A stretch of DNA of 64,000 nucleotides from the human T2T-CHM13v2.0 reference genome, Homo sapiens. The stretch's first letter is position 1; each line of letters starts with the position of its first letter. A program made the position numbers and the translations under genes. This document shows positions 52,501 through 53,306 of this stretch, in pieces. The notes below the pieces were generated by a model. It was not told where the DNA came from, did no database searches, and saw only the letters and a list, made by a program, of their open reading frames with translations. The stretch lies in the NCBI RefSeq assembly GCF_009914755.1, contig NC_060926.1. One strand, 5' to 3'.

Positions 52501-52542
52501 TGGAGGACTGAACAGCTGCATTTCTTTCTTTCCTTCTTTTTT

Positions 52543-53150
52543 CCAGGAACACGTGCACTTTATTGAATGCCATTGTAGAAAAGTGTGTGAGAATAAAGGG
52601 CTGATACAGAACTCAGGCCCAGGGTGCAGGGCCCGCAATGGACAGCGAGTACCTGGGCGCTACTGCTGGCCTTGGAGATTCTTTATCATTTGAGAAATTG
52701 CTTGGAATATTATCATAGAACTACTGGTGAAAAGGATGATGAGTGTTGTGGTCACATGGATGCCCAGGATGAGGGTGCAAACGTTCAGGCACTTGGCAGT
52801 GGAGGCGTAGGCCTGGGCCCCAGTCAGGTCGCCAACCATCTTCCTGTCCCTAGACTTCACGGAGTAGGTGAATGCTATGAAGCCCAGATGGCACCAATTC
52901 ATGAAGAGAGTGTTGAACAGGGACCAGACGACATGGCTGGGCACAGTGGTCTCACTGTGGATGTGGATCACGGTGGATGTCGGGGGAACAGGGTTGTGGG
53001 GCACCCTCAGCACAGCCACCTCATGCTCCTCCTTGAGCATTTCATAGTTGAGGGGGTGGCTGGTGTTGGCGGGAGTGAAGACGGTTTGGACAGCGTGGTT
53101 CATCGTGTCCAGGGAAGATCAGTTGTGGTCGGGATGGTGGGATGGTTCTC
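52543..53150 (-). pseudogene. IFITM3P: processed IFITM3-like retrocopy: 47-nt 5'UTR, CDS, 3'UTR, decayed A tail
   Basis: No intron at the SVK/SRD junction; AATAAA at 52559-52564 (minus); A-rich tail; TSD CAGCTGCATTT(C/A)TTTCT at 52513-52529 and 53151-53167; 5'UTR GAGAACCATCCC..CTGGACACG-ATG resembles IFITM3. Confidence 0.95.
52660..53103 (-). CDS. intact 147-aa IFITM (CD225) ORF in the retrocopy; coding status unknown
   Basis: [66 protein letters not shown]; no stop or frameshift; 27 differences from recalled human IFITM3 over residues 1-124. Confidence 0.4.
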
Positions 53151-53306
53151 CAGCTGCATTTATTTCTGTTTCCCCTTGAATTCTCACTAAAATGACAACA
53201 AAAGGTTTAAAATGCATAAACCTATGGAACGGAGAAAACGAGAGCAGTGATAGGAGAATACGAGAGATGTCAATACAATTTTGGAATCTAGAAAGTAGAT
53301 GGATGA

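What the first reader, a model, noticed from the sequence alone, without database searches (positions are those of the whole stretch)
52660..53103. IFITM retrocopy looks like a fossil of an ancestral long-tailed IFITM3
Seen: the 147-aa ORF has an IFITM3-type N-terminus (MNHAVQT..NYEML), has W at position 70, and ends [27 protein letters not shown]. Known (recalled): human IFITM3 is 133 aa, has P70 and ends ..IPVLIFQAYG. IFITM1 has W at the equivalent site and a tail (..VFGSVTVYHIMLQIIQEKRGY) that aligns ungapped with this one. Pig-type IFITM3 ends ..TTGSLVIFQAVLQLIKDYRGY, closer still. The ending GGC CAG CAG TAG parallels the IFITM1 GGT TAC TAG TAG. Inference: the parent mRNA was an IFITM3-like gene with the ancestral mammalian tail, a form not represented by human IFITM1/2/3. 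The copy may date when the primate IFITM3 tail was shortened, or record an extinct paralogue.
Basis: partly seen in the sequence, partly recalled or inferred. Interest (0 to 1): 0.8.

Follow-up and report, generated by a model that had tools for sequence, protein, structure and literature searches.

The report
IFITM pseudogene preserving a lost long tail
This is a dead, intronless copy of an interferon-induced antiviral gene (IFITM3P9) that still carries the long C-terminal tail typical of non-primate mammals, so it records a long-tailed relative of IFITM3 that no longer exists as a gene in humans.

Summary
Window 52660-53103 (-) holds an intact 147-aa CD225/IFITM ORF inside a classic L1-type retrocopy, the curated pseudogene IFITM3P9.

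- **Tail type.** The tail is the ancestral placental long type. It has the same length as 145-147-aa IFITM3 of squirrel, pig, meerkat and armadillo. The last 23 residues match squirrel at 12/23 and human IFITM1 at only 5/23.
- **Relic in IFITM3.** The human IFITM3 stop TAG aligns in frame with Gln138 of the copy. The first 33 nt of the IFITM3 3'UTR are a decayed remnant of the long tail (20/33, permutation p=3e-5). IFITM3 also lacks 12 nt upstream.
- **Dating claim fails.** The copy does not date the shortening. Tarsier and four strepsirrhine proteins already have the short tail, while the front of this copy is anthropoid-type.
- **Mosaic.** Versus the short-tailed retrocopy consensus, identity is 90% in the front, 62% in the TM2-tail block and 97% in the distal 3'UTR.
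- **Best reading.** The parent was a long-tailed IFITM3-like paralogue or gene-conversion mosaic that co-existed with short-tailed IFITM3 and is now lost.
- **Age and constraint.** Old World monkey proteins share its derived states, so insertion predates the ape-monkey split. Evolution looks neutral (15/126 aa differences vs 17.1 expected).

It is a known pseudogene with a modest, apparently unpublished evolutionary lesson.

The parts
53151..53161 (-). 5' target-site duplication AAATGCAGCTG
   Evidence: identical 11-mer at 52513-52523
52543..53150 (-). Body of the processed pseudogene IFITM3P9 (5'UTR part, CDS, 3'UTR), intronless
   Evidence: It aligns end to end with 11 other dispersed IFITM copies and exon by exon with chr11 IFITM1/2/3.
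52660..53103 (-). Intact 147-codon ORF plus stop; CD225 domain at residues 55-119
52854..52855 (-). Exon 1/exon 2 junction without intron (GTGAAG|TCTAGG)
52894..52896 (-). Codon 70 TGG (Trp). This is the state of IFITM1 and many non-primate IFITM3. Old short-tailed copies have TCC and human IFITM3 has CCC.
52888..52890 (-). Codon 72 CAT (His) in place of the second cysteine of the CC pair. It is Tyr in Old World monkey and siamang orthologues.
52613..52790 (-). Long-tail-type block (TM2, tail, proximal 3'UTR). It is 62% identical to the short-tail consensus over KCLN..stop and 79-82% identical to long-tail copies L014/L015.
52726..52737 (-). Approximate place of the 12 nt (4 codons) that IFITM3, IFITM2 and all short-tailed retrocopies lack. 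The exact gap placement is ambiguous.
52690..52692 (-). Codon 138 CAA (Gln). It aligns in frame with the stop TAG of IFITM3/IFITM2 and with CAG of IFITM1 and of the four other long-tail copies.
52663..52665 (-). Codon 147 CAG, probably the former first stop (TAG in L014, L015 and IFITM1), followed by the second stop TAG at 52660-52662
52543..52612 (-). Distal 3'UTR of IFITM3 type (68/70 identical to the consensus of old short-tailed copies), including AATAAA at 52559-52564
52524..52542 (-). Decayed poly(A) remnant
52513..52523 (-). 3' target-site duplication AAATGCAGCTG

Best explanation
IFITM3P9 is a neutrally decaying, L1-mediated processed pseudogene.

**Timing (inferred).** It was inserted after the tarsier split and before the ape/Old World monkey split.

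**Template.** Its template mRNA came from an interferon-induced IFITM gene that no longer exists in the human genome.
- The 5'UTR, the N-terminal extension, the CD225 core and the distal 3'UTR were of the anthropoid IFITM3 type.
- The block from TM2 through the C-terminal tail into the proximal 3'UTR kept the ancestral placental long-tail architecture. It has 39 residues after KCLN, giving a 146-aa protein.

**State of IFITM3 at that time.** Short-tailed IFITM3 already existed then. That short tail differs from the long form by a 12-nt deletion and a CAG->TAG nonsense change, which turned the rest of the tail into 3'UTR.

**The parent (inferred).** The parent was therefore a co-existing long-tailed paralogue. 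Its front was kept IFITM3-like by gene conversion, or it was a conversion chimera of IFITM3 with such a paralogue.

**What is shown and what is inferred.**
- Shown: the retrocopy anatomy, the homology of the tail, the mosaic structure, the relic of the tail in the IFITM3 3'UTR, and the neutral-looking divergence.
- Inferred: the timing bracket and the identity of the parent.
For: **Retrocopy anatomy**
- TSD, poly(A) signal and tail, and the exact loss of the intron.

**The tail is the ancestral type**
- It has 40 residues after KCLN, against 39 in squirrel, meerkat, pig, armadillo and Tupaia proteins of 145-146 aa.
- The last 23 residues match squirrel 12/23, pig and meerkat 10/23, and IFITM1 5/23.

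**IFITM3 carries the relic**
- A six-frame search reads IFITM3 exon 2 through its stops (1 TAG, 1 TGA) onto residues 83-146 of the query, at E=2.2e-12.
- The 33 nt from the stop onward match the long-tail consensus 20/33 in a fixed register (permutation p=3e-5).

**The short tail is older than the copy**
- Two tarsier and four strepsirrhine proteins have 26-27 residues after KCLN. Tarsier ends ..VPVLIFVAFQ; IFITM3 ends ..IPVLIFQAYG.
- The front of the copy is closest to anthropoid IFITM3: marmoset 94/107 and baboon 90/107, against tarsier 74-75/106.

**Mosaic**
- Versus the consensus of seven old short-tailed copies: front 323/360, KCLN..stop 74/119, distal 3'UTR 68/70.
- Versus L014: 251/347, 107/131 and 51/66.
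- In the central-block tree the copy groups with L014 and L015 (82/75). That group lies 0.29 substitutions per site from the short-tail clade, a split supported 100/100.

**Same age as the short-tailed copies**
- End branch 0.085, against 0.067-0.097 for old short-tailed copies.
- Distance to their consensus 0.099, against 0.062-0.099 for five full-length old short-tailed copies.

**A side-branch marker**
- The copy, L014 and L015 share a deletion of about 14 nt just after the stop. IFITM1, IFITM3 and L019 do not have it.

**The mechanism is visible in today's locus**
- Human IFITM1 and IFITM3 are identical for the first 108 nt of exon 2. Identity then drops to 22/60.
- This boundary falls within about 40 nt of the place where the copy switches type.

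**Minimum age**
- Gelada (P0002) and red colobus (P0003) proteins share the copy's derived states: RVPHNP, NWCYLGF, FTYSVK, IHVTT and ...KNLQGQQ.
- Schelle et al. 2023 (PMC10415907, Table 4 read) list IFITM3P9 between PAPOLG and BCL11A in all six ape species studied.

**Neutrality**
- Human differs from gelada at 15/126 residues, against 17.1+-3.8 simulated.
- Three of 16 dispersed copies keep a full ORF.
- P(no new stop) = 0.41 at d=0.09.
Against: - **No primate DNA.** No non-human primate DNA was available, so orthology of the Old World monkey proteins and the absence of the copy from New World monkeys and tarsier rest on protein sequences and annotation only.
- **Weak upper age bound.** It rests on similarity of the front (an inference) and on branch lengths without a formal clock.
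- **Wide-ranging end branches.** The copy's end branch varies by region: 0.048 in the front, 0.098 in the rear and 0.16 in the central block.
- **Tarsier proteins may be retrogene products.** The tarsier 'IFITM3-like' proteins may themselves be encoded by retrogenes.
- **Strepsirrhine tails.** They are the same length as IFITM3's but only weakly similar in sequence, so parallel truncation there is not excluded. Colugo is truncated at a different codon, which shows that truncation recurs.
- **N/S ratio.** Changes of the copy against the consensus give N/S = 30/22. This is lower than the roughly 2.5-3:1 I expect for random change (recalled, not computed), so part of that branch was under constraint. 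That fits change in the parent gene but also fits a period as a functional retrogene.
- **No extant long-tail gene found.** No extant primate gene with this tail type was found. That search needs shared exact 5-residue words and annotated proteins.
Confidence: 0.72

Rival explanations
1. Direct-ancestor fossil. The parent was the single IFITM3 lineage itself before its tail was shortened, so the copy dates the shortening.
For: - The IFITM3 3'UTR retains the decayed long tail in register.
- In the whole-length tree the copy is sister to all short-tailed copies plus IFITM3/2 (86/92).
- The distal 3'UTR and the ~30-nt 3'UTR deletion are shared with IFITM3.
Against: - Tarsier and strepsirrhine proteins are already short-tailed, while the copy's front is anthropoid-type.
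- The copy is no older than the short-tailed copies by branch length.
- The central block is 0.29 substitutions per site from the short type, against about 0.1 in the front. That is too much for one lineage over a short interval.
- A ~14-nt deletion specific to the long-tail copies is absent from IFITM3 and IFITM1.
Confidence: 0.12
2. Secondary read-through. A short-tailed IFITM3 retrocopy lost its stop and now reads into former 3'UTR.
For: - The tail is colinear with the IFITM3 3'UTR.
- IFITM3P5 (L004) shows that such a TAG->CAG event does occur.
Against: - The copy has the 12 nt that all 12 short-tailed copies and IFITM3/2 lack.
- Its tail matches non-primate IFITM3 proteins up to 12/23, which 3'UTR read-through would not produce.
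- Four other dispersed copies carry the same tail type.
Confidence: 0.01
3. IFITM3/IFITM1 chimera. The parent was a recombinant with an IFITM3 front and an IFITM1-type rear, like those reported in gelada and squirrel monkey and seen in macaque.
For: - Such chimeras exist: Schelle 2023, section 2.6 passages; macaque P0009 and ENA P0006/P0007, all 146 aa.
- The copy is a mosaic with a boundary in TM2.
- It has W70, as IFITM1 does.
Against: - The tail is not IFITM1-type: 5/23 against IFITM1, and 5/23 against the macaque chimera.
- In the central-block tree the five long-tail retrocopies exclude IFITM1 (80/69).
- A chimera with a different, ancestral-type long-tailed paralogue remains possible. 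That version is included in the best explanation.
Confidence: 0.05
4. Functional retrogene. The 147-aa ORF is, or was, expressed and selected in apes.
For: - The ORF is intact in human and gorilla (P0001, 147 aa, 3 differences; the cluster has 11 members).
- N/S = 30/22 against the consensus.
- IFITM3P9 appears as up-regulated in a TCGA differential-expression table (PMC12519442, one table row seen).
Against: - The human-gelada protein difference is neutral-like: 15/126 against 17.1+-3.8.
- Cys72 is lost, and PPNY has become PLNY.
- Old World monkey models start at Met22, colobus has a 4-residue deletion, and the siamang model leaves the tail after LIILFT.
- Three of 16 copies keep ORFs by chance-level survival.
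- No promoter was carried along; the copy is 5'-truncated relative to other copies.
Confidence: 0.05

Closest known systems
Short-tailed human IFITM retro-pseudogenes (IFITM3P1-P8, IFITM4P, IFITM8P, IFITM9P and one chr16 copy)
   Same: They are L1-type intronless copies of IFITM3-type mRNA with TSDs and poly(A). The front and distal 3'UTR are about 90-97% identical to their consensus, and their branch lengths are similar.
   Different: All 12 have the IFITM3 short tail: the 12-nt deletion, with TAG at the stop position in 11 of 12 and CAG in IFITM3P5. This copy has the long tail.
Four other long-tail IFITM retrocopies in the same genome (L014 chr1:27.83 Mb, L015 chr3:33.73 Mb, L019 chr8:65.40 Mb, L053 chr13:75.72 Mb)
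   Same: They share the tail type. L014 and L015 read GGC CAG TAG and share the ~14-nt deletion after the stop. The central block is 79-82% identical.
   Different: All four are broken. L014, L015 and L053 have an IFITM1-like distal 3'UTR. L014 and L019 have an older-type N-terminus with Ser5. Only this copy combines the long tail with an anthropoid IFITM3-type front and an intact ORF.
Human IFITM1
   Same: It has a long tail of 39 residues after KCLN, tandem stops TAG TAG, and W at the site equivalent to 70.
   Different: It lacks the 21-residue N-terminus. Its tail sequence is strongly diverged (5/23), and its 3'UTR is different.
145-147-aa IFITM3 of non-primate placentals (pig, cow, squirrel, beaver, meerkat, dolphin, armadillo, sloth, Tupaia)
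   Same: The overall architecture and length are the same. The tail motif xxIFQA(I/V)SQxxKxxxGx and NW/FCCLGF are shared.
   Different: The front of this copy is anthropoid-type (72-82/107 to non-primates against 88-94/107 to anthropoids). The copy is also a pseudogene.
IFITM3/IFITM1 chimeric genes of monkeys (Schelle et al. 2023; macaque A0A5F7ZTR0 = P0009)
   Same: They combine an IFITM3 front with a long tail through recombination or gene conversion inside the cluster.
   Different: Their tails are of the modern IFITM1 type; this one is not.

Membership tests
CD225 / IFITM (Pfam PF04505) | Match to the CD225 profile above the gathering score | tested here: met
   88.9 bits against a cut-off of 27.1, E=2.3e-25, residues 55-119
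CD225 / IFITM (Pfam PF04505) | Functional residues of antiviral IFITM3 (this list is recalled, not from a call): Cys71/Cys72/Cys105, the PPxY and YEML motifs, and GxxxG at 91-95 | tested here: not met
   Cys72 is His and PPNY is PLNY. Cys71, Cys105, YEML and GDLTG are kept.
L1-mediated processed pseudogene | Intron lost exactly at the parental splice junction | tested here: met
   The query is colinear across GTGAAG|TCTAGG. The chr11 genes have 565-575-nt introns there.
L1-mediated processed pseudogene | Poly(A) signal, A-rich tail and flanking target-site duplication, at a site away from the parent locus | tested here: met
   AATAAA, an A-rich remnant and a perfect 11-nt TSD. The copy is on chr2, the parents on chr11.
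Functional retrogene | ORF conserved across the species that share the insertion, and dN/dS below 1 | tested here: inconclusive
   The ORF is intact in human and gorilla. Old World monkey models start at Met22 and the siamang model leaves the tail. Protein divergence is neutral-like. No orthologue DNA was available for dN/dS.
Functional retrogene | Own transcription and translation | not testable with these tools
   There are only list mentions in two papers.
Retrocopy of present-day IFITM3 (as the gene name implies) | Colinear and similar to IFITM3 mRNA over its whole length | tested here: not met
   The KCLN..stop block is 74/119 identical, with a 12-nt indel and no stop at the IFITM3 stop position.
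IFITM3/IFITM1 chimera | C-terminal part of IFITM1 type | tested here: not met
   5/23 identity to the IFITM1 tail against 12/23 to squirrel IFITM3. IFITM1 falls outside the long-tail retrocopy clade (80/69).

The most novel reading that the evidence does not exclude
Stem anthropoids carried a third kind of immunity-related IFITM: a 146-aa protein with the IFITM3 N-terminus and the ancestral long tail, kept IFITM3-like in its core by gene conversion. This gene was later lost from the catarrhine locus. IFITM3P9 is its best-preserved record and is complete enough to let the lost protein be expressed and tested. A bolder variant is that the intact 147-aa ORF is still translated in great apes.
Probability: 0.6. 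Interest if true: 0.4.

Novelty: already known. Interest (0 to 1): 0.33.

Why it matters
The C-terminal tail is one of the two features that set IFITM1 apart from IFITM2/3. From memory, it affects localisation and antiviral range. The analysis gives three results.
- The primate IFITM3 short tail is derived, by a nonsense change plus a 4-codon deletion. Its relic is still readable in the IFITM3 3'UTR.
- The shortening is older than anthropoids.
- A long-tailed IFITM3-like gene nevertheless persisted alongside it and left this copy.

This adds a lost member to the birth-and-death and gene-conversion picture of the primate IFITM cluster. It also offers a natural sequence for testing what the long tail does on an IFITM3 background.

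The element itself is a curated pseudogene with no sign of function, so the value is evolutionary and modest.

Tried and rejected
- **Secondary read-through of a short-tailed copy.** Rejected on the 12-nt indel and on the tail matching non-primate proteins.
- **Modern IFITM3/IFITM1 chimera.** Rejected on tail identity and the central-block tree.
- **Intact ORF as evidence of selection.** Rejected. Three of 16 copies are intact, 4 of 16 have no indel in the front, P(no stop)=0.41, and the human-gelada difference is neutral-like.
- **Strict autapomorphy counts as an age measure.** Too few sites, so distances to a consensus and ML branches were used instead. In one search the values for P7 and P8 are inflated because these copies are 5'-truncated and flank was aligned. 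I left them out of the quoted range.
- **Tail-only protein search.** It found only 4 proteins (gorilla, siamang, gelada, colobus). No New World monkey or other mammal shares an exact 5-residue word with the tail, which is a limit of the method.
- **Literature searches.**
  - 'IFITM3P9' occurs in 4 papers.
  - The search with the terms IFITM3, C-terminal, premature stop codon, evolution and primates returned 13 papers.
  - The search with the terms IFITM3, IFITM1, C-terminal tail and ancestral returned 2 papers.
  - Judging by the passages I read for the four IFITM3P9 papers and by titles and abstract openings for the rest, none describes the long tail of this copy or the tail relic in the IFITM3 3'UTR.
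  - The supplements of Schelle 2023 (alignments S6-S10, Table S2) were not opened and may bear on this.
- **Not used.** Structure prediction, complex prediction, the RNA tools and the representative-protein search, because they would not change the reading.

Full report
**What is there.**
On the minus strand, 52543-53150 is an intronless IFITM copy.
It matches Pfam CD225 at E=2.3e-25.
- The copy is bounded by a perfect 11-nt target-site duplication, AAATGCAGCTG, at 53151-53161 and 52513-52523.
- It has AATAAA at 52559-52564 and an A-rich remnant.
- It crosses the IFITM exon 1/2 junction (GTGAAG|TCTAGG) without the 565-575-nt intron of the chr11 genes.
- It is the curated pseudogene IFITM3P9.

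**Relatives in the same genome.**
A DNA search and a protein search of the window's own assembly were run.
- They found the chr11 genes, identified by translation as IFITM3 (133 aa), IFITM2 (132 aa) and IFITM1 (125 aa).
- They also found 16 other dispersed intronless copies.
- In alignment, 12 copies have the IFITM3-type short tail.
- Five have a long tail: this copy, L014 (chr1), L015 (chr3), L019 (chr8) and the 5'-truncated L053 (chr13).

**The tail is ancestral, and IFITM3 carries its relic.**
- The stop TAG of IFITM3/IFITM2 and of 11 of 12 short-tailed copies aligns in frame with CAA (Gln138) here. It aligns with CAG in IFITM1 and in the other four long-tail copies.
- The short type also lacks 12 nt upstream.
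- The 33 nt from that codon onward match between the long-tail consensus and the old short-tail consensus at 20/33 in a fixed register (p=3e-5 by permutation).
- The six-frame search reads IFITM3 exon 2 through one TAG and one TGA onto residues 83-146 of the query (E=2.2e-12).
- Proteins fetched from the protein database show that 145-147-aa IFITM3 is the general placental form.
- This copy has 40 residues after KCLN, against 39 in squirrel, meerkat, pig, armadillo and Tupaia.
- Its last 23 residues match squirrel 12/23, pig and meerkat 10/23, and human IFITM1 only 5/23.
- L014, L015 and IFITM1 read TAG where this copy reads CAG (codon 147), followed by a second stop in L014 and IFITM1. The parental protein therefore probably had 146 residues.

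Its meaning is reversed, however: IFITM3 is the truncated derivative. IFITM3P5 shows what a true secondary read-through looks like.

**Why it does not date the shortening.**
1. The two tarsier proteins and four strepsirrhine proteins that I fetched have 26-27 residues after KCLN. Tarsier ends VPVLIFVAFQ and is plainly the IFITM3 type. The front of this copy is anthropoid-type: 94/107 to a marmoset protein and 90/107 to baboon IFITM3, against 74-75/106 to tarsier.
2. The copy is no older than the short-tailed copies. Its end branch is 0.085 against 0.067-0.097. Its distance to the old short-tail consensus is 0.099 against 0.062-0.099 for five full-length old copies (the 5'-truncated P7 and P8 were left out).
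3. It is a mosaic. Identity to that consensus is 323/360 in the front, 74/119 from KCLN to the stop and 68/70 in the distal 3'UTR. To L014 the figures are 251/347, 107/131 and 51/66. In the central-block tree it groups with L014/L015 (82/75), 0.29 substitutions per site from the short-tail clade.
4. The copy, L014 and L015 share a ~14-nt deletion after the stop that IFITM3 and IFITM1 do not have.

The present-day locus shows the likely mechanism. Human IFITM1 and IFITM3 are identical for the first 108 nt of exon 2, then fall to 22/60. This is a gene-conversion boundary in TM2, close to where this copy switches type. Schelle et al. 2023 (sections 2.4, 2.6-2.8 and part 1 of the Discussion read) also argue for concerted evolution and report IFITM3/IFITM1 chimeras.

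**Age.**
- Schelle's Table 4 lists IFITM3P9 between PAPOLG and BCL11A in human, both Pan species, gorilla, orang-utan and gibbon.
- The tail-only protein search found gelada (126 aa) and red colobus (122 aa) proteins that share the copy's derived states, including NWCYLGF and the ending KNLQGQQ.
- I take these as orthologues, which places the insertion before the ape/Old World monkey split.
- The upper bound (after the tarsier split) is inferred from the front and from branch lengths. It could not be tested, because no primate genomes were available.

**Function.**
Nothing points to one.
- Human and gelada differ at 15 of 126 residues. A neutral simulation at 6.5% divergence (a recalled figure) gives 17.1+-3.8.
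- Cys72 and the PPxY motif are lost.
- The monkey models start at Met22, colobus has a 4-residue deletion, and the siamang model leaves the frame after LIILFT.
- An intact ORF is unremarkable here: 3 of 16 copies are intact, and P(no new stop)=0.41.

**Literature.**
- 'IFITM3P9' occurs in four papers.
  - One is a synteny table (Schelle 2023).
  - One is a gene-set list (PMC8866527, passage seen).
  - One is a GWAS region list (PMC11049512, passages seen).
  - One is a TCGA table row (PMC12519442).
- Two further searches found nothing on the tail.
- A 2026 preprint on macaque IFITM retrogenes (passages seen) concerns other copies.
- Benfield et al. (PMC6907390, listing and abstract start only) show that codon 70 is functionally polymorphic.

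**Verdict.**
The copy records a lost paralogue or mosaic, not the moment of tail shortening. The object itself is a known, neutral pseudogene.

Noticed in passing
L014 (G000:C1:27831799-27832382), L015 (C3:33727975-33728473), L019 (C8:65398671-65399106), L053 (C13:75720537-75720674 and flanks): Four further long-tail IFITM retrocopies, all broken. L014, L015 and L053 have an IFITM1-like distal 3'UTR. L014 and L019 have an older-type N-terminus (Ser5). Whether they are annotated was not checked.
   Followed up: partly
L018 (G000:C11:355750-356947): IFITM1 lies on the minus strand in this assembly, the same strand as IFITM3 and opposite to IFITM2. I recall the plus strand for IFITM1 in GRCh38, but this was not verified.
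   Followed up: no
L004 (G000:C12:111558260-111558872, IFITM3P5): This short-tailed copy has CAG where IFITM3 has its stop TAG, and CTA where IFITM3 has the next TGA. The frame therefore runs on (open frame 196 aa). It is a real example of secondary read-through.
   Followed up: partly
L017 (IFITM2 3'UTR): IFITM2 carries a tandem duplication of roughly 60 nt in its 3'UTR relative to IFITM3.
   Followed up: no
L018/L016 exon 2: Human IFITM1 and IFITM3 are identical over the first 108 nt of exon 2 and the last 33 nt of exon 1, then diverge abruptly. This is a sharp gene-conversion tract boundary inside TM2.
   Followed up: yes
window 53161-53174 (-): GGGGAAACAGAAAT lies directly upstream of the 5' TSD. 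It resembles an IRF/ISRE core (GAAANNGAAA, recalled), but the site is A-rich as L1 targets are. It is probably chance.
   Followed up: no
window 52756-53190 (+): A 144-aa antisense ORF overlaps the pseudogene. No evidence for it was sought; it is probably a by-product of the GC-rich sense frame.
   Followed up: no
P0103, P0128 (colugos): Colugo IFITM3-like proteins (138 and 127 aa) are truncated at codons different from the primate stop, so tail shortening has recurred in related lineages.
   Followed up: partly
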